The position numbers and the translations under genes are program-made. The notes beneath the pieces were generated by a model. That model had not been told where the DNA came from and made no database searches. It worked only from the letters and a program-made list of their open reading frames with translations. Shown here piece after piece: positions 7,914 through 58,945 of a stretch of DNA of 64,000 nucleotides. This DNA comes from Patescibacteria group bacterium (GTDB lineage Bacteria > Patescibacteriota > Minisyncoccia > Minisyncoccales > Staskawiczbacteraceae): assembly GCA_038065715.1 (NCBI GenBank), contig JBBTQL010000004.1, positions 35,693 through 99,692 of the forward strand, read 5' to 3'. Position 1 is the first letter of the stretch; each line of letters starts with the position of its first letter.

Positions 7914-8748
7914 TTTTATTAAAAATATTATTTTTTATTTCTTTTAAGTCGGCTCCCGTTTTCATTAAAAGCCCGGCAGTTTCAAAAATTTCCTGCGTTG
8001 TTTTTGAATTTCCAAAATTTTCTGTGTAAATTGCCAGTCCTGCCAAAAAGCAGTTGGCAGCCTGTTTTTTTACCCCGTTAGAAAGCCCATCTTTTGAGGG
8101 TTCCTTATTGGATGGGTCGTATGGCCCCGGTTGCTCAAGCTTTCTATCGGGGTTTACAAGATTTAACGCCATCTCTGACAAAGAATAATCTCTTATTATG
8201 TTTATTCTACCAAAGTTTTGGTTTTTTGTCCCGACTTCGTCGAGGATGCTCGATGGCGAAGCCATCGGCACACTTTCACTATCTATATTTAAAATAAGAG
8301 AATCCAGTAAAAACCCATAAGAGTTAAGCTTGCCAGCCAATTCAGTTTTAAAATCTTTTATTCCTAAAGTTATTGTAAGGTCTGGTTTTGTTTCTGAAAA
8401 ATAAAATAAGAGGTTTTCTTTTTTTATATTTCCCCTGTCAATCATTAAATGAATTTTTAATCCTTCTTCATTTTTTTCGTAGTAAACCTGCGAGATTTCA
8501 GCTGTTTTTTGAGGAATTGAAATCACAAAGTTTTTTGGATATGAAATATGGCCTAAGCTAGGCAATAAAAATCGAAATTTTTCTGGAAATTCTTCTATTA
8601 TTAAGTTTACATTTTTATTTAATTCTTTTAAAGTATAAAAAAGAGCCAAAGCAACTGGAATGCTTTCGCCATTTGGGTTATCATTTGGAATAATGCAGAT
8701 ATTTTTTGCTTCAGAAATTAATTGCTTTGCTTCTTGCGGTATTTCCAT
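7906..8748 (-). CDS. Hypothetical protein with a degenerate DHH/NrnA-like N-terminal region
   Basis: 280 aa. ICIIPNDNPNGESIPVALALFYTLKELNKNV resembles the DHH motif region, but the catalytic His/Asp are replaced. Carries GC-rich insert A1. Confidence 0.45.
   Translation of the reverse strand: MEIPQEAKQLISEAKNICIIPNDNPNGESIPVALALFYTLKELNKNVNLIIEEFPEKFRFLLPSLGHISYPKNFVISIPQKTAEISQVYYEKNEEGLKIHLMIDRGNIKKENLLFYFSETKPDLTITLGIKDFKTELAGKLNSYGFLLDSLILNIDSESVPMASPSSILDEVGTKNQNFGRINIIRDYSLSEMALNLVNPDRKLEQPGPYDPSNKEPSKDGLSNGVKKQAANCFLAGLAIYTENFGNSKTTQEIFETAGLLMKTGADLKEIKNNIFNKNE
8228..8271. repeat. GC-rich palindromic insert family A, copy A1 (in frame in CDS 7906-8748)
   Basis: GTCCCGACTTCGTCGAGGATGCTCGATGGCGAAGCCATCGGCAC encodes ..PMASPSSILDEVG.. 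on the minus strand. Related to copies at 21287, 41150 and 61452. Confidence 0.75.
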
Positions 8749-8805: not shown

Positions 8806-9312
8806 ATGAGAAATAAAATTATAACAAAAAGTTTTAAAGAAACTCAAAAAATTGGCGAGAAATTGGCAGATGAAATTTTGAAATTACTGCCGCAAAAAAG
8901 CGCAATAATTTTAGGTTTGAACGGAAACCTTGGGGGAGGCAAAACAACCTTCTTGCAAGGTTTTGCAAAAGGGCTGGGAATTAAAGAAAAAATATTAAGC
9001 CCCACCTTTGTAATTTACAAAAAGTTTATTATTTCACCAATACTTATAAATAAGCGTACGCAGAATTTGGAGTATCGCCAATTTTATCACTTTGATTGCT
9101 ATCGCATAAAAAATTACAAAGACTTTTTGGCGATAGGATTTTCCGCCCAAGGCGGACCAGCCTCGGGCTGGAAAGAAATAATTTCAAACCCAAAAAATAT
9201 TGTGGCAATTGAATGGCCAGAAAAAATTAAAAAGATTTTTCCAAAAACTGCCGTAAAGATAAATTTTAAATTTATCAACGAAAGCGCAAGAGAGTTGACA
9301 ATTAATAAATAA
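8806..9312 (+). CDS. tsaE: tRNA t6A biosynthesis ATPase TsaE
   Basis: P-loop GNLGGGKTTFLQGFAKGLGI, SPTF and YHFDCYRI motifs. ATG 8806 preferred over the TTG at 8797 in the track. Confidence 0.85.
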   Translation: MRNKIITKSFKETQKIGEKLADEILKLLPQKSAIILGLNGNLGGGKTTFLQGFAKGLGIKEKILSPTFVIYKKFIISPILINKRTQNLEYRQFYHFDCYRIKNYKDFLAIGFSAQGGPASGWKEIISNPKNIVAIEWPEKIKKIFPKTAVKINFKFINESARELTINK

Positions 9313-11619: not shown

Positions 11620-12513
11620 ATGCCAGAGCTTCCAGAAGTAGAAACAACGGTGCGCGGTTTAAATTCAAAGGTCCTAAAAAGGGCCTTTGTTGATGTGTGG
11701 TCAGATTGGGAAAGAATAATTAAAAAACCAGACAATTTTGAAGTTTTTAAAAAAAATATAAAAGGTAAAAAAATAGAAAAAATATGGCGCCGCGCTAAAA
11801 ATATTATTTTTGATTTATCTGAAGAAAGTTCTCTTTTAATCCACCAAAAAATGACAGGCCATCTTTTGCATGGAACATGGAACATAAAACATGAAACATG
11901 GACGCCGGCTGAAAAAGGTCCATTGAATGACCCGATGAATCGTTTTATTCATTTAATATTTTTTTTAGACAATGGAAAAATGCTCGCTTTGTCTGATGCA
12001 AGAAAATTTGCCAAAGTTGAATTATGGAAAACAGAAGAATTATTAAAAGAATTTGATAATTTAGGGCCAGAACCGCTGGACAAAAATTTTACTTTTGAAA
12101 AGTTTAAAGAAAGATTGTTGCGGCAAAACCCGCCTTCGCCAAGGCTTCGGCGGGGCAAAGTAAAACAGGTTTTAATGAATCCAGAAATAATTGCAGGCAT
12201 TGGAAATATTTATTCTTCAGAGGCATTGTGGCATGCAAAAATACATCCAGAAAAAGAAATCCAAAAATTAAATGGCAAAGAACTAAAAAATATTTATAAT
12301 TCTATTAAAAAAGTTTTAGAGTTGGGGGTGAAATTGGGAGGAGAAAGTTTCTCAGACTACAGAAAACCAGACGGCAGCAAAGGAAATTTTGACACAGAAA
12401 GAAGGGCTTATAAAAGGGAGGGGCAAAAATGCCATAGATGCGGGACAAAAATAAAAAGAATAAAATTTGGCGGCAGAAGCGCATTTTTTTGCCCCCACTG
12501 CCAAAAACTATGA
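11620..12513 (+). CDS. mutM: Formamidopyrimidine-DNA glycosylase
   Basis: N-terminal MPELPEVET and a C-terminal zinc finger CHRCGTKIKRIKFGGRSAFFCPHCQ. Carries a GC-rich in-frame insert at 12129-12155. Confidence 0.95.
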   Translation: MPELPEVETTVRGLNSKVLKRAFVDVWSDWERIIKKPDNFEVFKKNIKGKKIEKIWRRAKNIIFDLSEESSLLIHQKMTGHLLHGTWNIKHETWTPAEKGPLNDPMNRFIHLIFFLDNGKMLALSDARKFAKVELWKTEELLKEFDNLGPEPLDKNFTFEKFKERLLRQNPPSPRLRRGKVKQVLMNPEIIAGIGNIYSSEALWHAKIHPEKEIQKLNGKELKNIYNSIKKVLELGVKLGGESFSDYRKPDGSKGNFDTERRAYKREGQKCHRCGTKIKRIKFGGRSAFFCPHCQKL

Positions 12514-12527
12514 TAAAAGCAAAAAAT

Positions 12528-12546
12528 AGAGACCCGATCTCGCACA
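12528..12546. repeat. REP-like sequence upstream of RAYT (degenerate, inverted orientation)
   Basis: AGAGACCCGATCTCGCACA is the near reverse complement of the downstream REP core GTGTGAGATCGGGTCTC. Confidence 0.6.
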
Positions 12547-12565
12547 ACTCACACAAAAAAATACT

Positions 12566-13303
12566 ATGCCATATAGAAAAGAACAATTTGTGAACGGAGA
12601 TATTTATCACATTACCAATAGAGCAATTGATGATAACTTAATTTTTAAAGATAAAAACGATTATTATCGCGGTATTTTTTCTATTTATGAATTTAATAAT
12701 GAAAAACCTGTGAATATATCTAATAGAAGACGAGATCGGATTGTCGAAAAAGAAAGAGAAAAACCGTGTGAGACCGGGTCTCATGCGAAGCTTTCTTCGG
12801 ATGAAAGGGAAAAGTTGGTGGATATTTTTGCATTTTGTTTTATGCCAAATCATATTCATCTTTTGGTAAAACAGCTGGAAGATAATGGAATAACTAATTT
12901 TATGAAAAAAGTCGGCATAGGATATGGAGGTTATTTTAATAGAAAATATCAGCGCAAAGGTTATGTTTTCCAAAACAGATTTAAATCAGTTCACATAGAG
13001 AATGACAATCAATTTATGGTGGTTGTGCCGTACATATTTACAAATCCCACCGCATTAATAGAGCCAGGGTGGAAAGGACAGGGGATCAAAAATCACTCCA
13101 CCAAAGAGGTGCTTAAATTTTTAGAAGAATACAAGTGGTCAAGTTATCAAGATTGTATTGGAATTAAGAATTTTGATTCTGTCACACAAAGAGATTTTTT
13201 ATTAGAAATGATGGCAGGCAAACAAGGTTGTAAAGACGCAGTTGAAAATTGGATAAAAAATAAAGTCGAAATTGGACAGCACGCAAATATTTTATTAGAT
13301 TAA
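12566..13303 (+). CDS. REP-associated tyrosine transposase (RAYT, IS200/IS605 Y1 HUH family)
   Basis: 245 aa. YHITNRA, the HUH motif in FMPNHIHLLV, and a C-terminal Tyr-containing region. Flanked by REP-like hairpins. Confidence 0.8.
   Translation: MPYRKEQFVNGDIYHITNRAIDDNLIFKDKNDYYRGIFSIYEFNNEKPVNISNRRRDRIVEKEREKPCETGSHAKLSSDEREKLVDIFAFCFMPNHIHLLVKQLEDNGITNFMKKVGIGYGGYFNRKYQRKGYVFQNRFKSVHIENDNQFMVVVPYIFTNPTALIEPGWKGQGIKNHSTKEVLKFLEEYKWSSYQDCIGIKNFDSVTQRDFLLEMMAGKQGCKDAVENWIKNKVEIGQHANILLD
12766..12786. repeat. REP-like hairpin inside the RAYT coding sequence (in frame)
   Basis: AAAACCGTGTGAGACCGGGTCTCATGC closely matches AAAACCGTGTGAGATCGGGTCTCACAC at 13303-13330. Encodes ..KPCETGSHA.. Confidence 0.65.
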
Positions 13304-13306
13304 AAA

Positions 13307-13332
13307 CCGTGTGAGATCGGGTCTCACACAGC
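13307..13332. repeat. REP hairpin downstream of RAYT
   Basis: GTGTGAGA-TCGGG-TCTCACAC, a perfect 8-bp stem, immediately after the RAYT stop. Confidence 0.75.
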
Positions 13333-13341
13333 TTGCTAAAA

Positions 13342-14316
13342 ATGATTTATTTTATTTACGGGGAAGATTCTTACAGGTCAAAAAAGAAATTAGAAGAGAT
13401 AATTTTAGGTTACAAAAAAGTCCATAAATCAGGATTAAATTTGGTTTATGTTGATGCTGGTAAAACAGACTTTAATGATTTTTACAGCAATTTTAAAATT
13501 ACCTCAATGTTTGCTGAAAAAAAACTGATAGTTTTAAAAAATGTTTTTTCTCGCCCTGAACGCGCCGAAGGGCCAAGTCAAAAGTTTCAGGAGGAGTTTT
13601 TAGAAAATTTTAAAAATTTAGAAAAAATTGAAGATATAATTATTGTTTTTGAATATGATGCGGTTGATGAAAGAAAAAAGCTTTTTAAAATTTTAAAAAA
13701 AGAAACAAAATGCCAGGAGCTCTCTTTTCTTTTTGGGCTAAGCCTAAAAAAATGGGCAAAAGAGGAGTTCGAAAAAAACAAAACAAAAATTAATCCTGAC
13801 GCAGAAGACTTGCTTTTGGCTTTTACGGGAAACGATCTCTGGCAATTAGCAAATGAGATAAATAAATTATCAAATTATAAAAGAGAGGGGTACTCGCTGC
13901 CAGGTCTTATAAAAAAAGAAGATGTTGAGCTTTTAGTAAGGCCTAAGTTAGAAAATGATATTTTTAAAACAATTGAAGCCATGGCTCAAAAAAATAAAAA
14001 AGAAGCTTTTTCTTTATTGCATAAGCATATTGAAAATGGAGACAACGCCCTTTATCTGCTTTCAATGATTGCCTACCAGTTTAAAAATCTTTTAATAATA
14101 AAAGAACTTATTGAAAAACGCCTGCCCTATGCTGTTGTTTCAAAAAACAGCGGGCTTCACCCGTTTGTTGTTAAAAAAACATATTATTTGTGCGGCCAGT
14201 TTTCATTTAACGAACTAAAAAAAATCTACCAAAAAATTTTTCAGGCAGATTTAGATATTAAAACAGGTAAGATTGATCCAGAACTCACCTTAGATTTATT
14301 AGTTTCAGAAGTATAG
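13342..14316 (+). CDS. holA: DNA polymerase III delta subunit
   Basis: N-terminus MIYFIYGEDSYRSKKKLEEII and overall length typical of HolA. ATG 13342 preferred over TTG 13333. Confidence 0.8.
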   Translation: MIYFIYGEDSYRSKKKLEEIILGYKKVHKSGLNLVYVDAGKTDFNDFYSNFKITSMFAEKKLIVLKNVFSRPERAEGPSQKFQEEFLENFKNLEKIEDIIIVFEYDAVDERKKLFKILKKETKCQELSFLFGLSLKKWAKEEFEKNKTKINPDAEDLLLAFTGNDLWQLANEINKLSNYKREGYSLPGLIKKEDVELLVRPKLENDIFKTIEAMAQKNKKEAFSLLHKHIENGDNALYLLSMIAYQFKNLLIIKELIEKRLPYAVVSKNSGLHPFVVKKTYYLCGQFSFNELKKIYQKIFQADLDIKTGKIDPELTLDLLVSEV

Positions 14317-21181: not shown

Positions 21182-21787
21182 ATGATAGCATTTTTATCGG
21201 GTAAAATTTTATTAAAAAAGGACAAGTTTATCATTCTTGAAGCAGCTGGCGTTGGCTACAAAGTTTTTTTAAATCAGCAAACCCTATCCCGACTCGATCG
21301 AGGATCCTCGACGACTTCGTCGTCGGGATTAAAATTATCAGAAATAGGGCAGGATGTAAAGCTATTTTGCTTCCAAAATATAAAAGAAGATGCTTCGGAT
21401 TTATATGGGTTTTTAAGTTATGACGAGCTTGATTTTTTTGAGGTGCTAAACGATATTCATGGCGTAGGGCCAAAAGCTGCTTTGGAAATTTCTGTGTTAG
21501 GCCCCTTAGAAAAAATTAAGGACAGAATTTTAGCGCAGGACGAAAAAATATTTGAAGGAATTCCCGGAATTGGTTCAAAAAGGGCGTCGTCAATTATTTT
21601 AGAATTGACCGGAAAAATAATGGCGAAGTCCGCCTTTGCTAAAGCTTCGCCAGACGAAGCAGAAACCGCTTTAACCCAGCTTGGTTTTTCAAAACAGCAA
21701 GCAAAGGATGCCCTGGCTCGCGTGCCTGTTGCTGTTAAAAATTCTGAAGACAGAATAAAATTAGCGCTTAAAAATTTAGGAAAATAA
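21182..21787 (+). CDS. ruvA: Holliday junction DNA helicase RuvA
   Basis: MIAFLSGKI start and HhH motifs GVGPKAALEI and IPGIGSKRASSIILEL. ATG 21182 preferred over the upstream alternative start. Confidence 0.85.
   Translation: MIAFLSGKILLKKDKFIILEAAGVGYKVFLNQQTLSRLDRGSSTTSSSGLKLSEIGQDVKLFCFQNIKEDASDLYGFLSYDELDFFEVLNDIHGVGPKAALEISVLGPLEKIKDRILAQDEKIFEGIPGIGSKRASSIILELTGKIMAKSAFAKASPDEAETALTQLGFSKQQAKDALARVPVAVKNSEDRIKLALKNLGK
21287..21329. repeat. GC-rich palindromic insert family A, copy A2 (in frame in ruvA)
   Basis: ATCCCGACTCGATCGAGGATCCTCGACGACTTCGTCGTCGGGAT has perfect 8-bp termini. Encodes LSRLDRGSSTTSSSGL. Confidence 0.75.
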
Positions 21788-22788: not shown

Positions 22789-24039
22789 ATGAGGATAAAA
22801 GAAGCAGTTAAAAAAATATTAGGCAGAAATTTGTTGGGTTTTTATCATTATGGCATGGCTTTTTTGGGAGCTGTGATTTTTGGTTTTCCATCTAAAAATT
22901 TAACTGTTATAGGGGTTACAGGCACCAGCGGTAAATCAACTACTTCTGATTTTATCACAAGAATTTTAGAAGAACCCTTCGACGGGGCCCAGGGCAGGTC
23001 TGGCAATAAGGTGGCTTCAATTTCAACAATAAGATTTAAAATTGCAGAAAAAGAATGGGAAAATAAATATAAAATGACAATGCCCGGCCGTTTTGTTATT
23101 CAAAAGTTTTTAAGGCAGGCAAAAAAAGCAGGATGCAAATTTGTGGTTTTAGAAGTTACTTCGCAAGGCATTGAACAATATCGCCATAAATTTATAAATT
23201 TTGATACAGCTGTTTTTACTAATTTGTCGCCAGAGCATATTGAAAGCCATGGCAGTTTTGAAAATTACAGAAACGCAAAACTAAAACTATTTCGAGCAAC
23301 AAAAAACATCCATATTATAAATACTGATGACGCAAATTCAAAATATTTTTGGAATATTCCGGCAAAACAAAAAATTGGATTTTCAGCCAAAGATGCGCAA
23401 AACGCTAATTTAAAATTAAATTTAATTGGAGACTTTAATATTTTAAACGCCTTAGCGGCAATTTCTGCGGCAAAGGCATATGGCATTGATTTTAGCATTT
23501 GTAAAAGGGCGCTGGAAAAGGCCAAAGGAATTTCTGGCAGAATGGAAGTGATTCAAAAAGAGCCATTCAAAGTTATTGTTGACTATGCTCATACTCCAGA
23601 ACAACTCGAAAGTGTCTATAAGGCACTTTCTCAAAACCCAAAACCTCAAACTCCAAACCCCAAACTTATTTGTGTGCTTGGAAGTTGCGGCGGGGGAAGG
23701 GATAAATGGAAAAGGACTGTTTTAGGAGAAATTGCAAATAAATATTGCGACAAAATATTTATAACCAATGAAGATCCATATGATGAAAACCCCAACCAGA
23801 TTTTATCTGAAATAAAATCTGGAATTATCAATTCTCAATTTCCAATTTCCAATTTATATGAAATTTTAGACCGTAAAGAGGCAATTAAAACTGCAATAAA
23901 ATTAGCAAAATCAGATGATATTGTTATAATCACTGGCAAGGGTTCAGAATCCTGGATGTGCATAGCAAACGGTAAAAAAATCCCCTGGGACGACAGGCAA
24001 ATCGCTAAAGATGCGTTGGGGCTCCAAACCTTGACATAG
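22789..24039 (+). CDS. murE: Mur ligase, MurE-like UDP-MurNAc-tripeptide synthetase
   Basis: GVTGTSGKSTT P-loop, DYAHTP and GSCGGGRDKWKR. Carries in-frame repeat inserts at 22975-23004, 23630-23667 and 23835-23856. Confidence 0.8.
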   Translation: MRIKEAVKKILGRNLLGFYHYGMAFLGAVIFGFPSKNLTVIGVTGTSGKSTTSDFITRILEEPFDGAQGRSGNKVASISTIRFKIAEKEWENKYKMTMPGRFVIQKFLRQAKKAGCKFVVLEVTSQGIEQYRHKFINFDTAVFTNLSPEHIESHGSFENYRNAKLKLFRATKNIHIINTDDANSKYFWNIPAKQKIGFSAKDAQNANLKLNLIGDFNILNALAAISAAKAYGIDFSICKRALEKAKGISGRMEVIQKEPFKVIVDYAHTPEQLESVYKALSQNPKPQTPNPKLICVLGSCGGGRDKWKRTVLGEIANKYCDKIFITNEDPYDENPNQILSEIKSGIINSQFPISNLYEILDRKEAIKTAIKLAKSDDIVIITGKGSESWMCIANGKKIPWDDRQIAKDALGLQTLT

Positions 24040-24059
24040 ATGCTTTAATATGATATGAT
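24031..24059 (+). promoter_or_regulatory. Promoter of DGR-1 target gene
   Basis: TTGACA, 17 nt (TAGATGCTTTAATATGA), then TATGAT, with a TG-extended -10. Nearly identical to the promoter at 61997-62025. Confidence 0.65.
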
Positions 24060-24097
24060 TAATAATATAGCTCTTTTTTATTGTTACTTGCGAAATT

Positions 24098-24218: not shown

Positions 24219-24878
24219 ATGGCTGTGCAAGTCATTGGCGATCTATATGTGGAGTTGGATGGGAAGTTGGCGGAGATTAAGCGGCAAATGAGGCAGCAGG
24301 GAGGCTATCCGTTTGACCCGGAGAAATTAAACAAGTTTCTCCAACTAGCTGTCGAGGGCAGGTTCAACGACAACCGGTGCTGGTGCGAGAAGGAAGGAGT
24401 GATCTACTTTGAGGTCACCTCTGACGGCACGACTGGACCCCAATGGATTGAGCGTCTGGAGAAGAAGGGTATCCAGCTCTCCAAGTGGGCCAAGGACGTC
24501 CTGCTGTCTCCGGACTTCAAGCCGACCAACGGCGTGACCACCGAGATCGCTGTCCTCAAGGGCGCGCTTTTTATGGACAATGATCGCATCACGTCTAAGA
24601 TCCGCGCTGAGGCCGACAAGCGCAAGCTCGTCAAGCCCGAAGCCGAACTCGGTTGCCTTATCCGCGACACGTTCACGGACGAGGAAATCGAAGCCATGGG
24701 TCTTGTGTGGATCGTGGCGTTCCACGAGCCCATCAAGGACTCTGACGGCGATCCGACGTTGCTCGGTGCGCGTCGCCTTGGCGATGGCCGTTGGCTGCGC
24801 GCGTGCTGCGGCCTGCCCGACCGCAGGTGGCTTCGCGACCGTGGCTTTGCCTTCGCCGTCTCGCAAGTATCTTCGTAA
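24219..24878 (+). CDS. DGR-1 variable (target) protein with C-terminal VR, no signal peptide
   Basis: 219 aa; RBS AAAGGAG before the ATG. Sampled 60-nt lines are about 60-65% GC versus about 30% for the genome. The C-terminal 42 codons are the VR. Confidence 0.85.
   Translation: MAVQVIGDLYVELDGKLAEIKRQMRQQGGYPFDPEKLNKFLQLAVEGRFNDNRCWCEKEGVIYFEVTSDGTTGPQWIERLEKKGIQLSKWAKDVLLSPDFKPTNGVTTEIAVLKGALFMDNDRITSKIRAEADKRKLVKPEAELGCLIRDTFTDEEIEAMGLVWIVAFHEPIKDSDGDPTLLGARRLGDGRWLRACCGLPDRRWLRDRGFAFAVSQVSS
24741..24866 (+). repeat. Variable repeat VR-1
   Basis: Gap-free 126-nt alignment with TR-1. There are 21 substitutions opposite TR adenines and one C/G difference; the last 25 nt are identical. Confidence 0.9.
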
Positions 24879-24974: not shown

Positions 24975-25334
24975 TAAATGGTAATAGGTGAATCTTGCGG
25001 GAGATCAAGGTTTCCCGCGGCCGAATCCAGTATTCGTATGCTGAGAGCGTTTGCGATTAAGGTTGCAAACGGAGGGCATACGAATTACTTTCAAAAAAGA
25101 AGATACTTGGCGTGGGAAACTAGGGCATTACGATGCCGAATTCGATACAGCCCTGTGATCGTAAAACTACTTCAAGGGGCAGTGGCATAGATGGTTTCTT
25201 GCGTATTTCTGACGGCGATCCGAACTTGCTCAGTGCGAATCGCAATGACGATGGCCATTGGCTGAACGCGTACTACGACAAGCCCGACAACAGGTGGAAT
25301 CGCGACAATGGCTTTGCCTTCGCCGTCTCGCAAC
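24975..25334 (+). ncRNA. Putative DGR-1 template RNA (structured 5' region plus TR)
   Basis: Candidate promoter TTGCAC-18-TAAAAT (TG-extended) near 24940-24972. Extended hairpin at 25029-25089 and blocks conserved with locus 2 up to 14 nt before TR. Transcript ends are not determined. Confidence 0.5.
25209..25334 (+). repeat. Template repeat TR-1 (noncoding)
   Basis: Copy of the VR with A at 21 variable positions, mostly in AAC/AAT codons of the VR frame. No RBS or start codon. Confidence 0.9.
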
Positions 25335-25339
25335 TCTCT

Positions 25340-25699
25340 TCATTTCTCTCCTTGCTTAGGAGAGTTTTGTTTAATAATTTGTCCCGACCAACCACCGAGC
25401 ATTTTGCCAATTTCATCTAGTTTCAATGATAGAGCAATATATTTTTTGTTATCCAATGATTTTGTTTCCCAAAGAATCATTAAAAATATTTTTAACGTAT
25501 CGACCTTTCTAATTGCTAAACGTACATAGGACAATTTTTCTGATTGCCCAAGAAAACTTGCAGTCACTATTGCCTCTATTGCTTCAACAAAAAGTTTATC
25601 AATTTTTTCACCAAGAGAATATTTATGTATTTTTGGTATAATTAAATAGTGTTGGTACCAAAAAAGATAAGCTTCTTTCAACTTTTGCAAAACAGGCAA
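25340..25699 (-). CDS. avd: DGR accessory variability determinant (Avd-like four-helix-bundle protein)
   Basis: About 119 aa from a TTG start (LPVLQKLKEAYLFWYQ...). Homologous to the 122-aa ORF at 63274-63642. Helical pattern with C-terminal IGKMLGGW. The track ORF extends further upstream (25834), probably spuriously. Confidence 0.8.
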   Translation of the reverse strand: MPVLQKLKEAYLFWYQHYLIIPKIHKYSLGEKIDKLFVEAIEAIVTASFLGQSEKLSYVRLAIRKVDTLKIFLMILWETKSLDNKKYIALSLKLDEIGKMLGGWSGQIIKQNSPKQGEK

Positions 25700-25715: not shown

Positions 25716-25739
25716 ATTAAAAGCTGAGTTATTTTGATT

Positions 25740-39830: not shown

Positions 39831-41482
39831 TAAAAGAAGAAATAAAAAAAATAGTGGAAAACTCAATTAAAAACCTGCAAAAACAGGGCGCATTTTTAAA
39901 ATTAAAAATGCCAGAAATTTTAATTGAGCGGCCTAAAGAAAAAATACGCGGTGACTATTCAACCAACATTGCCTTTGTAATTGGAAAAGATGTTTTGAAA
40001 AATCCATTTGAAACGGCATTGCTTTTGAAAACAGAAATTGTCTCGCTTTGCGAGATCTCGCGCAGCGAGAAAAAACAAAAATCTGTAATAGAAAAAGTTG
40101 AGGTAGTGGGAGGGTTTATTAATTTTTTTGTTGCTGACGATTATTTTAAAAATCAGCTGCAAATTATTTTAAAACAAAAAAACAAATTTGGAGATTTAAA
40201 ACTTGGTAAAAGTCAAAAAGTAAACATAGAATTTATTTCTGCAAATCCAACAGGGCCGTTAACTTTAGGAAACGGCAGAGGAGGATTTTGTGGCGATGTT
40301 TTGGCTAATGTTTTAGAAAAAGCAGGATATAAAGTTGAAAGAGAATATTATATTAACAATACCGGAGCTCAAATTAAAAAACTTGGGCATTCTGTAATTG
40401 GAGATGCAGAAGCTGTTTACAAAGGAAAATATATTATTGATTTAAGAAACAAAGTTAAGGGAGATGACCCCGAGAAAGTTGGAGAAAAATCGGCAAAAAT
40501 TATTTTAGAAAAAATGATAAAGCCGTCTGTAAAAAAAATGGGAATTAAATTTGACACATGGTTTTCAGAAAAAACTCTCTATAAAAATAAAGAAGTAGAT
40601 AAAACAATACAAGAATTGGCTAAAAAAGGGTTCACCTATGAAAGCGAAGACGCTGTGTGGTTTAAATCTAAAGAATTGGGCGATGACAAAGACAGGGTTT
40701 TGGTGAGAGCCGACGGAATTAAAACATATTTTGCTTCAGATATTGCTTATTTTAAAAATAAATTTAAAAGAGGGTTTGGTAAACTTATTATGTTTTTGGG
40801 AGCCGACCACTATGGATATGTTCCGAGGCTAAAAGCTGCCTCGCTTGCTTTTGGTTTTAAAAAAGACAGTATTGATGCTATTGTTATGCAGTTGGTGCGG
40901 CTTTATGAAAAAGGCAAAGAAGTAAGAATGGCAAAAAGGACTGGTATTTATGTAACAATAGATGAGTTAATTGGCGAGGTTAGTTTGGATGTTGCCAGAT
41001 TTTTCTTTTTAATGATAAGCCCTAATACCCACATGAATTTTAATTTGGATTTAGCAAAAGAAAAATCAGAGAAAAATCCGGTTTTTAAAGTGCAATATGC
41101 GCATGCCCGAATTTGCTCAATTTTCCGAAAATTTGGAAATTTCAAATTTTCCCGATTTCATCGAGGATCCTCAATGGCAAAGCCATCGGGACAAATTTCA
41201 AATTTAAAATTATTAAATGAGCCGAGCGAGTTAGGGTTAATTAGAGAATTAATTAAACTTCCAGAAATTATTGAAGAGATAGCTAAAGATTATCAAGTTC
41301 AAAGACTACCGCAATACGCAATGGATTTAACTGATGCATTCCATAGATTTTATGAAAACTGTAAAGTCCTGAGCGAAGTCGAAGGATTGCGTGATGCCCG
41401 CTTGTCTCTTGTTATGGCAACAAAAATTGTTTTAAAAAATACATTAGACTTAATGGGAATATCTGCTCCTGAAAAAATGTGA
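39827..41482 (+). CDS. argS: Arginine--tRNA ligase
   Basis: 551 aa with SANPTGPLTLGNGRG and VQYAHARICS; ends in M. Carries inserts at 40049-40078, 41137-41205 and 41368-41392. Confidence 0.95.
   Translation: MIKEEIKKIVENSIKNLQKQGAFLKLKMPEILIERPKEKIRGDYSTNIAFVIGKDVLKNPFETALLLKTEIVSLCEISRSEKKQKSVIEKVEVVGGFINFFVADDYFKNQLQIILKQKNKFGDLKLGKSQKVNIEFISANPTGPLTLGNGRGGFCGDVLANVLEKAGYKVEREYYINNTGAQIKKLGHSVIGDAEAVYKGKYIIDLRNKVKGDDPEKVGEKSAKIILEKMIKPSVKKMGIKFDTWFSEKTLYKNKEVDKTIQELAKKGFTYESEDAVWFKSKELGDDKDRVLVRADGIKTYFASDIAYFKNKFKRGFGKLIMFLGADHYGYVPRLKAASLAFGFKKDSIDAIVMQLVRLYEKGKEVRMAKRTGIYVTIDELIGEVSLDVARFFFLMISPNTHMNFNLDLAKEKSEKNPVFKVQYAHARICSIFRKFGNFKFSRFHRGSSMAKPSGQISNLKLLNEPSELGLIRELIKLPEIIEEIAKDYQVQRLPQYAMDLTDAFHRFYENCKVLSEVEGLRDARLSLVMATKIVLKNTLDLMGISAPEKM
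41137..41205 (+). repeat. Composite insert in argS: family A copy A3 nested within an AAATTTC heptamer repeat
   Basis: AAATTTCAAATTT (41137-41149), then TCCCGATTTCATCGAGGATCCTCAATGGCAAAGCCATCGGGAC, then AAATTTCAAATTT (41193-41205). Encodes GNFKFSRFHRGSSMAKPSGQISNLK. Confidence 0.8.
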
Positions 41483-53335: not shown

Positions 53336-54607
53336 ATGTATAAAAAAACAACATTAAAAAACGGATTAAGGGTGATAACAATTCCAATGGAAAACGCCAA
53401 TAGTGTTACTGTTTTAATCTTGGTTGGCACAGGTTCAAAATATGAAACAAAAGACATAAACGGCATTTCTCATTTTTTAGAACATATGTTTTTTAAAGGC
53501 ACTGAAAAAAGGCCAACCACTTTAAAAATTGCCGAAACCTTAGATATGGTTGGCGGCGAATATAATGCTTTCACATCAAAAGAAATTACTGGATTTTGGG
53601 CTAAAGTAGATAAAAAACACACAGATGTTGCTTTAGACTGGATATCTGATATGTTTTTAAATTCTAAATTTGACGAAAAAGAAATAGAAAGAGAAAAAGG
53701 AGTAATAATAGAAGAGGTAAATATGTATTTAGACACCCCAATGGCCTATGTTGGAGAATTATGGGAAGATTTGCTTTACAAAGACCAGCCGGCCGGCTGG
53801 CGGGTTATAGGCGAAAAAGAAAACATACTGAACTTTAACAGAAAAAAAATTATAAATTATTATAAAAATCATTATTCGCCAAAAAATACAATAATTTGCG
53901 TGTCGGGAGGCATTGAGCAAGATAAAATTGCATCAAAAATACAGAGTTATTTTTCCCCCTTCGGGGGATCCGCCGTAGGCGGAAAAGTTAAAGTAAAAGA
54001 ATACCAAAAAGAGCCTGAAATATTGTTTCACCATAAAAAAACAGACCAGACCCATTTTTGTTTAGGGGTAAGGGCATACGATATGTTTCATCAGCAAAAA
54101 TATGCTTTGGTTTTACTGGCTATTATTTTGGGGGGAAACATGAGCTCGCGTCTTTTTATTAAAGTAAGGGAAAGAAGCGGTTTGGCTTATTCTATTCACA
54201 CATCTGTTGACGCTTCTACTGACACCGGATATTTGGTCACGCAAGCTGGAATTGACCATAAAAATTTAGAAAAATCAGTAAAGCTTATTTTACAGGAATA
54301 TAAAAACATTAAAGATACAAAAATTACAGAAAGAGAATTGCAAAAGGCAAAAGATTATTTAAAGGGAACTATGTCTTTGTCTTTAGATTCGTCAGACAGC
54401 CAAGCTTCTTTTTATGCCGTGCAAGAATTGCTTGAAAAGGAAGTTTTATCTCCTGAAGAAAAGTTTAAAAAAATTGACACAGTTTCTGTAAATGATATAA
54501 AAAAGGTAGCAGAGGATATATTTTTACCAGAAAAGTTGAATTTGGCAGTTATCGGCCCGTTTGAAGAAAATAAAAAAGAAGAGTTTAAAAAAATACTAAA
54601 AATATGA
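53336..54607 (+). CDS. M16-family zinc peptidase
   Basis: HFLEHMFFKGT (HxxEH). In-frame double tetraloop-hairpin insert at 53955-53983. Confidence 0.9.
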   Translation: MYKKTTLKNGLRVITIPMENANSVTVLILVGTGSKYETKDINGISHFLEHMFFKGTEKRPTTLKIAETLDMVGGEYNAFTSKEITGFWAKVDKKHTDVALDWISDMFLNSKFDEKEIEREKGVIIEEVNMYLDTPMAYVGELWEDLLYKDQPAGWRVIGEKENILNFNRKKIINYYKNHYSPKNTIICVSGGIEQDKIASKIQSYFSPFGGSAVGGKVKVKEYQKEPEILFHHKKTDQTHFCLGVRAYDMFHQQKYALVLLAIILGGNMSSRLFIKVRERSGLAYSIHTSVDASTDTGYLVTQAGIDHKNLEKSVKLILQEYKNIKDTKITERELQKAKDYLKGTMSLSLDSSDSQASFYAVQELLEKEVLSPEEKFKKIDTVSVNDIKKVAEDIFLPEKLNLAVIGPFEENKKEEFKKILKI

Positions 54608-58036: not shown

Positions 58037-58945
58037 ATGATTATTGATACACATTCTCATTTAAGTTTTAAGGCATATGATAGCGATAGAGATGAGGTTA
58101 TAAAACGCACTCAAAAAGAGGGTGTTGTTTGTATTGATGTTGGCACAAAATATGAAACAAGCAAAAGGGCAGTTGAATTAGCAGAAAAATATGAAAATAT
58201 ATATGCAGCCGTTGGAATGCATCCAATTCATATAAAAACAGATTTATTAAAATTAAAATTAGACAAAGAAGAGGGCGCATTTGCTCCGCTTGGCGAAGAG
58301 TTTGATAAAGCGAAATACAGAGAACTTGTTATAAATAGTGAAAAAAAAGCCGAAGGTCCTAACTCGAGAAGGACCGAAGGCTCTGAGGAGCTAAAGCGAC
58401 GAAGAGTGGTAGCGGTTGGTGAAATTGGATTAGACTATTATTATAAGCCAAAAGGAACAGCTAAAAAAGAACAATTTAAAGAAAAACAAAAACAAGTTTT
58501 TTTACAGCAATTAGAATTGGCAGAAGAATTAAATTTACCGGTAATTGTTCATTGCAGAATGGCGCATCAGGATGTTATAGAAATTTTGAAAAATAAAAAT
58601 GTTGAAGGAGTTATTCATTGTTTCACAGGAAATTGGGAAGAAGCGCAAAAATATATAGATTTAGGATTTTATATTGGCTTAAACGGAATTATTTTTTCTG
58701 CCCTAGGCAGACCCGCCTCGGGCGGGAAATTACCGCTAGATGATGTTGTTACGCAGTGTCCCCTAGATAAAATTTTAACAGAAACAGATTGCCCATATTT
58801 AACACCCTTGCAGGAAAACGGAAAAAGAAACGAACCGATTTTTGTAAAACACGTTATTCAAAAAATCGCTGACTTAAAAAGTGTTAGTTTCGCCGAAGTT
58901 GCCGACAAAACTACCCAAAACGCCAAAAAATTATTTAATATTTAA
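58037..58945 (+). CDS. tatD: TatD-family metal-dependent hydrolase
   Basis: MIIDTHSHL; 302 aa. Inflated by GC-rich inserts at about 58343-58400 and 58712-58726. Confidence 0.9.
   Translation: MIIDTHSHLSFKAYDSDRDEVIKRTQKEGVVCIDVGTKYETSKRAVELAEKYENIYAAVGMHPIHIKTDLLKLKLDKEEGAFAPLGEEFDKAKYRELVINSEKKAEGPNSRRTEGSEELKRRRVVAVGEIGLDYYYKPKGTAKKEQFKEKQKQVFLQQLELAEELNLPVIVHCRMAHQDVIEILKNKNVEGVIHCFTGNWEEAQKYIDLGFYIGLNGIIFSALGRPASGGKLPLDDVVTQCPLDKILTETDCPYLTPLQENGKRNEPIFVKHVIQKIADLKSVSFAEVADKTTQNAKKLFNI

What the first reader, a model, noticed from the sequence alone, without database searches (positions are those of the whole stretch)
12528..13332. REPtron-like unit: RAYT transposase flanked by REP hairpins, one inside its own gene
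Seen in sequence:
- CDS 12566-13303 has HUH (HIH in MPNHIHLLV) and Y1-transposase features.
- It is followed by a perfect hairpin, GTGTGAGA-TCGGG-TCTCACAC (13310-13330).
- It is preceded by an inverted, degenerate copy (12528-12546).
- It contains a third copy in frame (12761-12790, AAAACCGTGTGAGACCGGGTCTCATGC).

Established knowledge: RAYTs are domesticated IS200/IS605-like enzymes flanked by the REP sequences they bind and probably disseminate.

Inference: this enzyme is a candidate driver for at least part of the hairpin-element load in this genome. However, the other families (A, B and the rest) have different sequences.
Basis: partly seen in the sequence, partly recalled or inferred. Interest (0 to 1): 0.55.

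Follow-up and report, generated by a model that had tools for sequence, protein, structure and literature searches.

The report
Transposase-like gene with three matching hairpins
A gene for a single-strand DNA-cutting enzyme in a tiny uncultured bacterium carries one DNA hairpin before it, one after it and one inside its own coding sequence; in about 80 related genes the three hairpins match each other but differ from gene to gene, a new variant of the known REPtron arrangement.

Summary
CDS 12566-13303 encodes a 245-aa HUH/Y1 nuclease (NHIH; YIFTNP). Its best structural match is the E. coli REP-associated transposase bound to a REP hairpin.

The motif GTGTGAGAYCGGGTCTCAC occurs three times in 64 kb and nowhere else:
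- a degenerate copy upstream;
- a copy in frame in the CDS;
- a perfect copy 5 nt after the stop.

The triad is a family trait. In 80 Patescibacteria loci the three hairpins share a median 19-20 identical bases within a locus, against 8 between loci.
- The hairpin apex is conserved: GAGR-[T/A]CGGG-YCTC.
- The lower stem is private to each gene, even for two adjacent paralogues.
- The internal copy always lies in a disordered linker before the HuH strand, in any reading frame and either orientation.

Genes are multi-copy per genome (53-79% identity) and under purifying selection. Several, including this one, are syntenic across species. The unit is nevertheless absent from the same site in the closest relative and present elsewhere in another.

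Verdict: a REPtron-like unit and a new variant of a known kind. In-frame REPs inside RAYT genes were already reported for subclass 2.4. There is no GTAG foot and little dispersal. The claim that this enzyme drives the genome's other hairpin families is not supported.

The parts
12521..12558 (-). Upstream (UP) hairpin copy, degenerate and chimeric: AAAAAATAGAGA-CCCGA-TCTCGCAC, followed by a second CTCACAC. The core matching the motif is 12527-12545.
   Evidence: 3 mismatches, minus orientation; only a 4-bp stem, -2 kcal/mol; the left arm and loop are identical to the ATAGAGA-type hairpin of L081, L085 and L091, while the right arm resembles the GTGTGAGA type. DNA homology with the relocated unit L081 begins here.
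12566..13303 (+). CDS for a 245-aa class-2 Y1/HUH single-strand DNA nuclease (RAYT-like). HuH is H96/H98 (12851-12859). The catalytic Tyr is Y156, with N160 (13031-13045). A C-terminal helical domain carries the YKWSSY motif.
   Evidence: ORF and family scans; profile hit to 4er8. AF2 model with pLDDT 85.9. Foldseek best hit 4ER8_A, E 1.2e-5. NHxH and Y[IV]xxN present in 81 of 81 homologues; dN/dS 0.06-0.20.
12760..12786 (+). Internal (MID) hairpin copy, in frame: AAAACC-GTGTGAGA-CCGGG-TCTCAT-GC, with core 12766-12784. It encodes (K)PCETGSH in the linker between helix 51-65 and strand 85-92.
   Evidence: 1 mismatch; 6-7 bp stem; residues 70-76 have pLDDT below 50; a hairpin at CDS nt ~188-211 in most homologues; covariation count.
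12786..12799 (+). Second small GC hairpin inside the same linker: CGAAG-CTTT-CTTCG. Absent from the shorter linkers of L081 and L085.
   Evidence: fold. (comparison with L081 and L085).
13304..13334 (+). Downstream (DN) hairpin copy: AAACC-GTGTGAGA-TCGGG-TCTCACAC-AGCTT. The perfect 8-bp stem is 13309-13329, 5 nt after the stop codon.
   Evidence: 0 mismatches; z -3.1 and -4.2; homology with L081 ends here; nearly identical in the syntenic orthologue L084 although dS is about 1.2.
11620..12513 (+). Left neighbour fpg/mutM (formamidopyrimidine-DNA glycosylase). It is a context marker, not part of the unit.
   Evidence: fpg-[Y1]-holA synteny in many species, and an empty fpg-holA site in L090.
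13343..14316 (+). Right neighbour holA (DNA polymerase III delta). It is a context marker, not part of the unit.

Best explanation
This is a REPtron-like unit. A class-2 Y1/HUH single-strand DNA nuclease gene (RAYT/TnpAREP-like) sits together with its own cognate hairpins.

Proposed mechanism, by analogy with E. coli TnpAREP and IS200/IS605 TnpA (inferred, not shown):
- The enzyme binds the hairpin when the DNA is single-stranded, for example on the lagging-strand template.
- It reads the conserved apex (GAGR-[T/A]CGGG-YCTC) and the gene-specific lower stem.
- It cuts and rejoins DNA next to the hairpin through Y156 and the HuH-bound metal.

Shown by comparison:
- The two outer hairpins are the ends of the unit. 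Homology between units in different genomic contexts starts and stops at them.
- The whole unit, hairpins included, is missing from the fpg-holA site of the closest relative.

The third hairpin lies in a disordered, length-variable linker just before the HuH strand, so the protein tolerates it.
- Shown: all three copies are kept matched to each other, while the stem differs between genes, even adjacent ones.
- Shown: mixed and chimeric triads occur, and the internal copy occupies all three reading frames and both orientations.
- Inferred from these: hairpins are replaced one at a time as cassettes, most likely by the enzyme's own cut-and-rejoin activity or by conversion seeded on the shared 13-nt apex. 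Slow point-by-point co-evolution would not give this pattern.

Most likely consequence of the internal site (inference): it makes the gene a substrate or binding site of its own product, and in part of the family a premature terminator. That would limit its own expression or activity.

The unit is mostly inherited vertically and is under purifying selection. Whole-unit gain, loss or relocation is rare, and solo hairpins are spread only at low level.
For: - Protein identity. Pfam Y1_Tnp. REP_Tyr_transpos scores 41.9 bits against 13 bits for IS200. The profile hit to 4er8 aligns HuH, the FQ/WQ position and YIxxNP. Foldseek's best hit is 4ER8_A, ahead of IS608 and ISDra2. The catalytic motifs are present in 81 of 81 homologues. 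dN/dS is 0.06-0.20.
- Gene-specific triad. The identical stretch shared by UP, MID and DN within a locus has a median of 19-20 nt, against 8 nt between loci and 8 nt for a control CDS segment. All three copies match in 52 of 80 loci, and at least two match in 78 of 80. Positions are fixed. Hairpins are enriched only at -50..0, CDS nt 150-250 and 0..+50 after the stop.
- Stem covariation in the intragenic copy: 88.5% of cells paired against 55% in shuffles, with 161 double-sided changes against 50.
- Conserved apex across 148 hairpins.
- Private hairpins in two adjacent paralogues of L068.
- The unit is bounded by its hairpins. Window versus L081 aligns from -51 to +22. L081 versus L085 aligns from -35 to +28. 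Further pairs behave the same way. L090 is an empty site.
- Cassette-like turnover. At one syntenic site L085 has three ATAGAGA hairpins and L084 has three CCGTGTGAGA hairpins, while L091 and the window are mixed. The internal copy uses all three frames, both orientations, and linkers of 41-64 aa.
- The linker is disordered.
- Solo copies exist away from the gene.
Against: - No biochemistry. Binding, the cleavage site and strand specificity are all inferred.
- No GT[AG]G foot or any other conserved guide-like tetranucleotide was found, so the way a cleavage site would be chosen is unknown.
- The orientation of the outer hairpins is not consistently inverted. By loop reading, UP is 30 + and 22 -, and DN is 41 + and 9 -.
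- In the window itself the upstream copy is barely a hairpin, so this particular unit may be partly decayed.
- About 10 of 80 loci have lost the internal copy while keeping intact catalytic motifs, so it is not essential.
- The A-tract/stem/T-tract shape would also fit intrinsic terminators.
- The window shows no dispersed copies.
Confidence: 0.68

Rival explanations
1. It is an ordinary autonomous insertion sequence of the IS200/IS605 type. The outer hairpins are the subterminal left- and right-end structures, the gene is its transposase, and the element is currently transposing by peel-and-paste.
For: - Hairpin-bounded units share homology only within the unit while sitting in different contexts.
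- Presence and absence occur at the same site.
- There are several copies per genome.
- The fold is shared with IS608 and ISDra2 TnpA.
Against: - The Y motif is Y---NP (class 2), not Y---Q.
- NCBIfam IS200 scores 13 bits against a cutoff of 55.
- Within-genome copies are 53-79% identical. None is near-identical, whereas real IS200 copies are about 99% identical (PMC6006769).
- The fpg-Y1-holA synteny has persisted across species whose Fpg proteins are 60-75% identical.
- dN/dS is about 0.1.
- No tnpB neighbour appears in any annotated locus.
- Each copy has a different hairpin.
- The protein carries an extra 80-aa C-terminal domain.
Confidence: 0.15
2. The hairpins are mainly RNA or transcription elements: bidirectional intrinsic terminators or mRNA stabilisers flanking the gene, plus an intragenic attenuator. 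They resemble each other for reasons unrelated to recognition by the enzyme.
For: - The consensus is an A-tract, a GC-rich stem and a T-tract.
- The scan calls the window's internal copy terminator-like on both strands.
- Several internal copies (L001, L002, L018, L020, L059) are textbook terminators.
Against: - A nearly invariant apex (G-A ... T-C around a CGG-containing loop) is not needed for termination.
- Stems are private to each gene yet identical at three places, even when a neighbouring paralogue's different hairpin lies only 100-250 nt away.
- Many copies lack a T-run, including the window's downstream copy.
- Unit homology and the empty site show that the hairpins travel with the gene.
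- No Rfam family matches.
Confidence: 0.07
3. The internal hairpin has no function. It is an old REP insertion in a permissive loop and stays matched to the flanks only as a by-product of hairpin turnover.
For: - It lies in a disordered linker.
- It is read in any frame and either orientation.
- It is lost in about 10 of 80 loci whose catalytic motifs remain intact.
- In-frame REPs of variable position are known in subclass 2.4 genes and in unrelated genes (PMC6006769).
- Other palindrome families sit in frame inside ORFs of this very window.
Against: - It is retained at one position (CDS nt ~188-211) in most of a family spanning 50-100% identity, and also in a 39%-identical paralogue.
- It remains a good hairpin although synonymous sites are saturated.
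Confidence: 0.35

Closest known systems
REPtrons: RAYT/TnpAREP genes flanked by cognate REPs (E. coli yafM; Nunvar 2010; Ton-Hoang 2012 PMC3333891; Messing 2012 PMC3479197; Corneloup 2021 PMC8266576)
   Same: - A class-2 Y1/HUH enzyme (HuH, Y---NP) bracketed by palindromes that are specific to that gene.
- Several differing gene/hairpin pairs can coexist in one genome.
- Inheritance is largely vertical.
- The best structural match is the TnpAREP-REP complex 4ER8.
   Different: - There is no GT[AG]G foot. A conserved apex GAGR-[T/A]CGGG-YCTC and A/T tracts take its place.
- Solo copies are few. None occurs in this 64 kb, and about 14 genuine ones were seen among 18 seed matches in 422 kb of related flanks.
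- At least six paralogues were found in one small genome.
- The protein is 245 aa with a long N-terminal linker and a C-terminal WSSY domain.
- Whole-unit gain, loss or relocation is seen.
- A third cognate hairpin sits at a fixed place inside the gene.
TnpAY1 subclass 2.4 (Quentin, Siguier, Chandler & Fichant 2018, PMC6006769), whose REPs are inserted in frame inside the tnpAREP gene
   Same: Cognate REPs lie inside the enzyme's own gene without breaking the frame, in a peripheral variable region, in addition to the flanking REPs.
   Different: [quoted passage not shown]
- Here a single hairpin lies N-terminal to HuH at a constant position across the family. It lacks GTAG and occurs in Patescibacteria.
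- The HuH-to-Y spacing here is the ordinary 60 aa.
TnpAY1 subclass 2.1 / TIRYT (PMC6006769; De Nocera 2013, PMC3733652)
   Same: The motif pattern and size fit best: NHxH, FQ in place of WQ, Y[IV]xxNP, an 'SS' tail motif, about 238 aa, and more than one diverged copy per genome (Table 1).
   Different: - Subclass 2.1 was reported to have no REP-like hairpins nearby, or terminal inverted repeats with GGGG[AT][CG]A[CG]. This family has clear cognate hairpins.
- Assignment by the authors' own HMM profiles could not be done here.
IS200/IS605 insertion sequences (IS608, ISDra2)
   Same: - Y1/HUH fold.
- The gene is bordered by subterminal hairpins that match each other and differ between elements.
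- The unit is delimited by the hairpins.
   Different: - The Y motif is Y---NP, not Y---Q.
- There is no tnpB.
- There are no near-identical copies.
- Hairpin orientation is mixed.
- Residence at one site is long-term and syntenic.
In-frame palindromic insertions in coding genes (Rickettsia palindromic elements; REPs inside genes noted in PMC3733652)
   Same: A GC-rich palindrome is translated as part of a tolerated loop. The window also holds other palindrome families inside ORFs.
   Different: Here the palindrome is the cognate site of the very protein that encodes it, and it co-varies with the gene's flanking copies. The comparison with Rickettsia elements rests on my own knowledge, not on a test made here.

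Membership tests
Class 2 TnpAY1 (RAYT/TnpAREP-like HUH nucleases) | Y1_Tnp core with an HuH motif and the class-2 tyrosine motif Y---NP | tested here: met
   - NHIH at residues 95-98 and YIFTNP at 156-161.
- Pfam PF01797, E 1.8e-8.
- NHxH and Y[IV]xxN in 81 of 81 homologues. The final P is replaced by G, S or A in 22 of them.
Class 2 TnpAY1 (RAYT/TnpAREP-like HUH nucleases) | Fold and sequence closer to TnpAREP than to IS200 TnpA | tested here: met
   - Foldseek: 4ER8_A E 1.2e-5, against 3.9e-4 or weaker for IS608 and ISDra2.
- hmmsearch: 4er8 E 0.019, covering HuH through YIxxNP.
- NCBIfam: REP_Tyr_transpos 41.9 bits against IS200 13.1 bits, both below their cutoffs.
REPtron (RAYT plus cognate REPs) | Gene immediately flanked by copies of one palindrome specific to that gene | tested here: met
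   - Window: copies at 12527-12545 (degenerate) and 13309-13329.
- Family: UP and DN share at least 10 nt in 84% of loci. The median shared stretch is 20 nt, against 8 nt between loci.
REPtron (RAYT plus cognate REPs) | Flanking REPs in inverted orientation | tested here: inconclusive
   - Window: UP is inverted relative to DN.
- Family: the commonest oriented pattern is (-,+,+), but (+,+,+) and other patterns also occur.
- Many 3-nt loops cannot be oriented.
REPtron (RAYT plus cognate REPs) | REP carries a conserved 5' GT[AG]G tetranucleotide at the foot of the stem | tested here: not met
   - The logo of 148 hairpins shows an A-rich 5' flank and a T-rich 3' flank, with no GTAG.
- AGCT on the 3' side is only mildly enriched: 11.5% against 3.2% background.
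REPtron (RAYT plus cognate REPs) | Cognate REPs dispersed genome-wide in many copies | tested here: inconclusive
   - No extra copy in this 64 kb.
- The 11-mer seed search gave 18 matches outside the unit in 422 kb of related flanks. About 14 were genuine hairpin copies on inspection.
- Three solo copies of this exact hairpin occur in JGI metagenome contigs without an adjacent Y1 gene.
- The rest of this genome could not be read.
REPtron (RAYT plus cognate REPs) | Single copy per genome, vertically inherited, with no mobility of the gene | tested here: not met
   - At least two to six diverged paralogues were found per MAG.
- Vertical inheritance is supported at the fpg-holA site.
- However, the site is empty in the closest relative, and a unit is found relocated elsewhere.
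IS200/IS605 insertion sequence | Tyrosine motif Y---Q, and a match to the IS200 transposase model | tested here: not met
   The motif is YIFTNP. NF033573 scores 13.1 bits against a cutoff of 55.
IS200/IS605 insertion sequence | Multiple near-identical copies in a genome | tested here: not met
   35 within-genome pairs: median identity 62%, maximum 79%.
IS200/IS605 insertion sequence | Frequent tnpB partner gene | tested here: not met
   The neighbours here are fpg and holA. None of the annotated related loci has an OrfB/TnpB family next to the gene.
TnpAY1 subclass 2.4 (intragenic REPs) | [quoted passage not shown] | tested here: not met
   The hairpin lies before HuH (residues ~66-75). The HuH-to-Y distance is 60 aa. 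There is no GTAG.
TnpAY1 subclass 2.1 | Membership by the authors' subclass HMM profiles or tree | not testable with these tools
   Only motif-level agreement with Table 1 of PMC6006769 could be checked (NHxH, FQ, Y[IV]xxNP, SS tail, about 238 aa). The profiles are not available here.

The most novel reading that the evidence does not exclude
The three-hairpin unit is a self-addressing system. Each paralogous Y1 nuclease recognises a private lower-stem 'address' and actively rewrites its own three sites, including the one inside its coding sequence, by enzyme-catalysed hairpin cassette exchange. The internal copy would serve as a built-in feedback site or master copy. Small Patescibacteria genomes would then maintain several orthogonal nuclease/hairpin pairs. 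That would be a natural, evolvable set of sequence-specific single-strand DNA recombinases, with a mechanism of concerted evolution not described for RAYTs.
Probability: 0.2. Interest if true: 0.75.

Novelty: new variant of a known kind. Interest (0 to 1): 0.6.

Why it matters
How RAYT enzymes recognise, move and co-evolve with their hairpins is still unsettled. The dissemination mechanism is unknown, and the role of the GTAG foot is only partly understood (PMC8266576).

This Patescibacteria family offers a compact natural data set of enzyme/hairpin pairs.
- More than 1,500 protein clusters at 90% identity matched the window protein in the protein search, so many more pairs than the 80 examined here are probably available.
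- The recognition element has an invariant apex and a variable 'address'.
- Three copies per gene report on turnover.
- Mixed triads catch replacement in progress.
- One site forces a coding sequence to obey a DNA-structure constraint.

This makes specificity swapping and cassette exchange directly testable with oligonucleotides.

It also shows that streamlined CPR genomes keep several such units under purifying selection. That argues for either a host benefit or an unusually stable selfish strategy.

It is not a new kind of system. The REPtron concept and in-frame REPs in RAYT genes were already described.

Tried and rejected
- Guide-like tetranucleotide. I looked for a conserved GTAG-like motif or other cleavage motif beside the stem. 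There is none. AGCT on the 3' side is only mildly enriched (17 of 148 against 3% background) and is not a defining feature.
- Target-site duplications outside the hairpins. Only sporadic cases exist: 14-17 nt of the holA start in L091 and 26 nt in L077. This is not a family rule.
- Other hairpin families in the window. I tested whether families D9, D10 and others belong to this enzyme family through the conserved apex. They do not.
- Rfam scan of 12300-13600. It gave only a chance snoRNA match at E 0.73.
- First AlphaFold run. With 23 close sequences it gave pLDDT 47 and was discarded. A 138-sequence alignment gave pLDDT 85.9.
- phmmer of the single protein against PDB sequences found nothing. 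The alignment profile was needed.
- Proximity-driven gene conversion as the sole cause of matching hairpins. This is rejected, because adjacent paralogues in L068 keep different hairpins that lie 100-250 nt apart.
- Pre-existing hairpins at the insertion site, such as an fpg terminator used as a target. This is rejected, because the empty site in L090 carries no family hairpin.
- Counting hairpin copies in the rest of this genome. This was not possible.
Full report
**1. What is in the window**

The window has 34% G+C. The protein is identical to one annotated in a Patescibacteria (CPR) MAG.

Between fpg (11620-12513) and holA (13343-14316) lies a 738-nt CDS, 12566-13303, encoding 245 aa.
- It carries NHIH (H96, H98) and YIFTNP (Y156, N160).
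- Pfam Y1_Tnp matches residues 72-157 (E 1.8e-8).
- NCBIfam scores REP_Tyr_transpos at 41.9 bits, below its cutoff of 80, and transpos_IS200 at 13 bits.

The motif GTGTGAGAYCGGGTCTCAC, allowing up to 3 mismatches, occurs at exactly three places in 64 kb (expected 0.01):

| Copy | Coordinates | State |
|---|---|---|
| Upstream (UP) | 12527-12545 | inverted, 3 mismatches, only a 4-bp stem |
| Internal (MID) | 12766-12784 | in frame, 1 mismatch, encodes CETGSH |
| Downstream (DN) | 13309-13329 | perfect 8-bp stem, 5 nt after the stop |

Fold energies are -2, about -8, and -7.5/-8.8 kcal/mol respectively, with z down to -4.2.

**2. The triad is a property of a whole gene family**

The protein search returned 1,565 clusters at 90% identity. 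The 120 best were 60-100% identical and about 245 aa long, and every source name given was a Patescibacteria lineage.

A scan of one genome per species returned 80 loci, all Patescibacteria and often several per MAG.

In most of these loci the best hairpin upstream, inside the CDS and downstream has the same stem. The stem differs from locus to locus.

Quantitatively:
- The longest identical stretch between the three regions of one locus has a median of 19-20 nt.
- The median is 8 nt for regions taken from different loci, and 8 nt for a control segment of the same CDS.

All three copies match in 52 of 80 loci, and at least two match in 78 of 80.

Positions are fixed:
- UP ends 0-50 nt before the ATG.
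- The internal copy starts at CDS nt ~188-211.
- DN lies 0-25 nt after the stop.

An unselected profile of perfect stems of at least 7 bp along 77 loci shows enrichment only at three places:

| Region | Loci with a stem of at least 7 bp |
|---|---|
| -50..0 before the ATG | 55% |
| CDS nt 150-250 | 25-36% |
| 0..+50 after the stop | 69% |
| Most other 50-nt CDS windows | 0-8% (one window, nt 350-400, reaches 21%) |

**3. Anatomy of the hairpin**

I aligned 148 hairpins on their loop. The consensus is AAAA - N6 - G(87%) A(91%) G R - [T/A]CGG[G/A] - Y C T(91%) C(89%) - N6 - TTTT.
- The apex is conserved across the family.
- The six-pair lower stem is free to vary and uses all four Watson-Crick pair types.
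- There is no GT[AG]G foot.

For 47 intragenic copies the tool count gives:
- 88.5% of cells paired, against 55% in shuffles;
- 161 double-sided changes, against 50;
- a covariation score of 0.83, against 0.19 in shuffles and 0.12-0.22 when the partners are slid.

These 47 rows were pre-selected for having a hairpin. One search is the unbiased measure.

**4. The internal copy**

It sits in a linker of 41-64 aa between the conserved EFN motif and the NHxH strand. It is read in all three frames and in both orientations. The resulting peptides include CELGAH, GDRVS, RGRAS, GGPSS and DRHRVSI.

The amino-acid sequence there follows the DNA, not the reverse.

An AlphaFold model built from 138 sequences (pLDDT 85.9) places it in a disordered loop between helix 51-65 and strand 85-92. 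Residues 70-76 have pLDDT below 50.

About 10 loci have lost the internal copy or hold only remnants, yet their catalytic motifs are intact.

**5. The protein**

- Foldseek's best PDB hit is 4ER8_A, the E. coli REP-associated tyrosine transposase bound to a REP hairpin (E 1.2e-5). IS608 and ISDra2 TnpA follow.
- A profile search aligns HuH, the FQ (WQ) position and YIxxNP to 4er8.
- NHxH and Y[IV]xxN are present in 81 of 81 homologues.
- dN/dS between orthologues is 0.06-0.20, with dS around 1.

By the motif table of Quentin et al. 2018 (PMC6006769) this is a class-2 protein (Y---NP). Subclass 2.1 fits best: NHxH, FQ, an SS tail, about 238 aa, and more than one diverged copy per genome. That subclass was reported to lack REPs.

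An exhaustive phmmer search finds 13,441 representatives at E of 1e-3 or lower, but only about three above 50% identity. The triad family is therefore a tight group inside a very large superfamily.

**6. Residence and mobility**

*Long-term residence.* The order polA-5'exo, HAMP protein, fpg, [Y1], holA, S20 is shared by at least ten species. Their Fpg proteins are 60-75% identical to the window's and their Y1 proteins 61-67% identical. This means long vertical residence at the site. The stems nevertheless differ between these orthologues.

*Not an expanding IS.* Within-genome paralogues are 53-79% identical.

*Evidence that whole units do move:*
- The closest homologue (82% aa identity, L081) lies between a hypothetical gene and murB. 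Its DNA homology to the window starts at the upstream hairpin and ends at the downstream hairpin.
- Other pairs show the same unit-only homology.
- The closest Fpg relative (82% identity, L090) has fpg followed directly by holA, with no Y1 gene and no family hairpin.

The hairpins therefore belong to the unit, not to the site.

**7. How the three copies stay matched**

At this one syntenic site the hairpin types are distributed as follows:

| Locus | UP | MID | DN |
|---|---|---|---|
| L085 | ATAGAGA | ATAGAGA | ATAGAGA |
| L084 | CCGTGTGAGA | CCGTGTGAGA | CCGTGTGAGA |
| L091 | ATAGAGA | GTGTGAGG | GTGTGAGG |
| window | chimeric (left arm ATAGAGA type, right arm ~GTGTGAGA type) | GTGTGAGA | GTGTGAGA |

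Together with the frame and orientation changes of the internal copy, this points to replacement hairpin by hairpin.

Simple proximity-driven conversion is excluded. In L068 two adjacent, diverged paralogues each keep a private triad, although their hairpins lie only 100-250 nt apart.

The downstream hairpin of the window and that of L084 are almost identical over about 24 nt even though dS is about 1.2. The hairpins are therefore constrained or recently renewed.

I infer, but have not shown, that the enzyme's own cut-and-rejoin activity does the replacing, or else conversion seeded on the shared 13-nt apex.

**8. Dispersal**

The hairpin has no further copy in the window.

In the related loci, the 11-mer seed search gave 18 matches outside the units in 422 kb. 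About 14 of these were genuine cognate copies on inspection. Some are doublets or triplets, and some lie inside long open frames.

A JGI metagenome scan for this exact hairpin found three solo copies with no Y1 gene nearby.

Spread therefore exists but is modest. The window's other GC-rich palindrome families lack the apex.

**9. Comparison with what is known**

The arrangement is a REPtron in the sense of Ton-Hoang 2012 and Corneloup 2021 (PMC3333891, PMC8266576). The closest precedent for the internal copy is subclass 2.4 of Quentin et al. 2018. [quoted passage not shown]

Differences here:
- no GTAG foot;
- a conserved apex;
- one internal copy at a constant position before HuH;
- multi-copy private pairs;
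- evidence of whole-unit gain or loss;
- a phylum not covered by those surveys.

Full-text searches combining Patescibacteria with IS200 and 'palindromic', and for TnpAREP or REPtron, listed no paper whose title or abstract describes this family.

I classify it as a new variant of a known kind.

**10. Shown and inferred**

Shown:
- the sequences and the statistics of triad matching;
- stem covariation and the conserved apex;
- the fold and the catalytic motifs;
- purifying selection;
- synteny, the empty site and unit-bounded homology;
- mixed triads.

Inferred:
- that the protein binds and cleaves these hairpins as single-stranded DNA;
- that it mediates hairpin replacement and rare unit movement;
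- that the internal site limits the gene's own expression.

Noticed in passing
window 9139-9168, 29277-29306, 53951-53980, 58694-58723 (family D9); 8229-8270, 21287-21328, 41150-41191 (family D10): Two other GC-rich palindromic repeat families lie inside long open reading frames, apparently in frame. D9 translates as ..SAQGGPASG.. and D10 as ..SRLDRGSSTTSSSG... They lack the GAGR-WCGGG-YCTC apex, so they are not cognate sites of this enzyme family. In-frame palindrome insertion seems to be a general habit of this genome.
   Followed up: partly
window 13548-13580 (inside holA): A GC-rich stretch (CGCCCTGAACGCGCCGAAGGGCCAAG), translated SRPERAEGPSQ, sits in an otherwise AT-rich holA gene. It may be another in-frame insertion.
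   Followed up: no
window 25730-26029 vs 63676-63975; 24741-24874 vs 25208-25341; 62704-62820 vs 63165-63281; 24031-24083 vs 61998-62050: Two regions about 38 kb apart share diverged repeats (78-82% identity). These include an internal ~465-nt periodicity and a similar promoter-like stretch (TTGACA...TATGATATGAT). This suggests a duplicated gene cluster.
   Followed up: no
L090 3900-3960 (GCA_964555955.1, CAZKUM010000007.1): Empty site: the closest Fpg relative has fpg followed by holA after 37 nt, with two small unrelated hairpins and no Y1 unit.
   Followed up: yes
L091 4835-4890 and 5627-5720: The Y1 unit is flanked by a 14-nt exact duplicate of the start of holA (ATGATTATATTTTT; 17 nt with one mismatch). 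This is reminiscent of a target duplication, which Y1 transposition is not expected to make. L077 shows a 26-nt flank duplicate.
   Followed up: partly
L068 194-952 and 1251-2006: Two tandem, strongly diverged Y1 paralogues each have a private hairpin triad: GTAGCGGGG-TCAGA-CCCCGCTAC and AGCGGAGA-CCCGA-TCTCCGCT. The second has three tandem upstream copies.
   Followed up: yes
L087 1961-1981; L088 2321-2341; L025 2507-2527 and 2735-2755; L046 4252-4272: Solo copies of family hairpins lie inside long open frames of other genes, so these hairpins can also sit in frame in unrelated coding sequences.
   Followed up: partly
L007, L031, L047, L049, L053, L065, L074, L079 (UP, MID or DN positions): In some loci the hairpin is replaced by a REPIN-like doublet. 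Two inverted copies form a 17-25 bp stem, often with AGCT at the centre, and this also occurs inside the CDS (L007, L031, L074).
   Followed up: partly
L057, L060, L062, L066, L071, L073, L077: A sub-clade with short linkers (41-43 aa) and mostly F[YW]FMP instead of FCFMP before the HuH motif uses a CAG/CTG loop (GGAGAACAGTTCTCC) instead of CGG. The apex therefore changes together with the protein clade.
   Followed up: no
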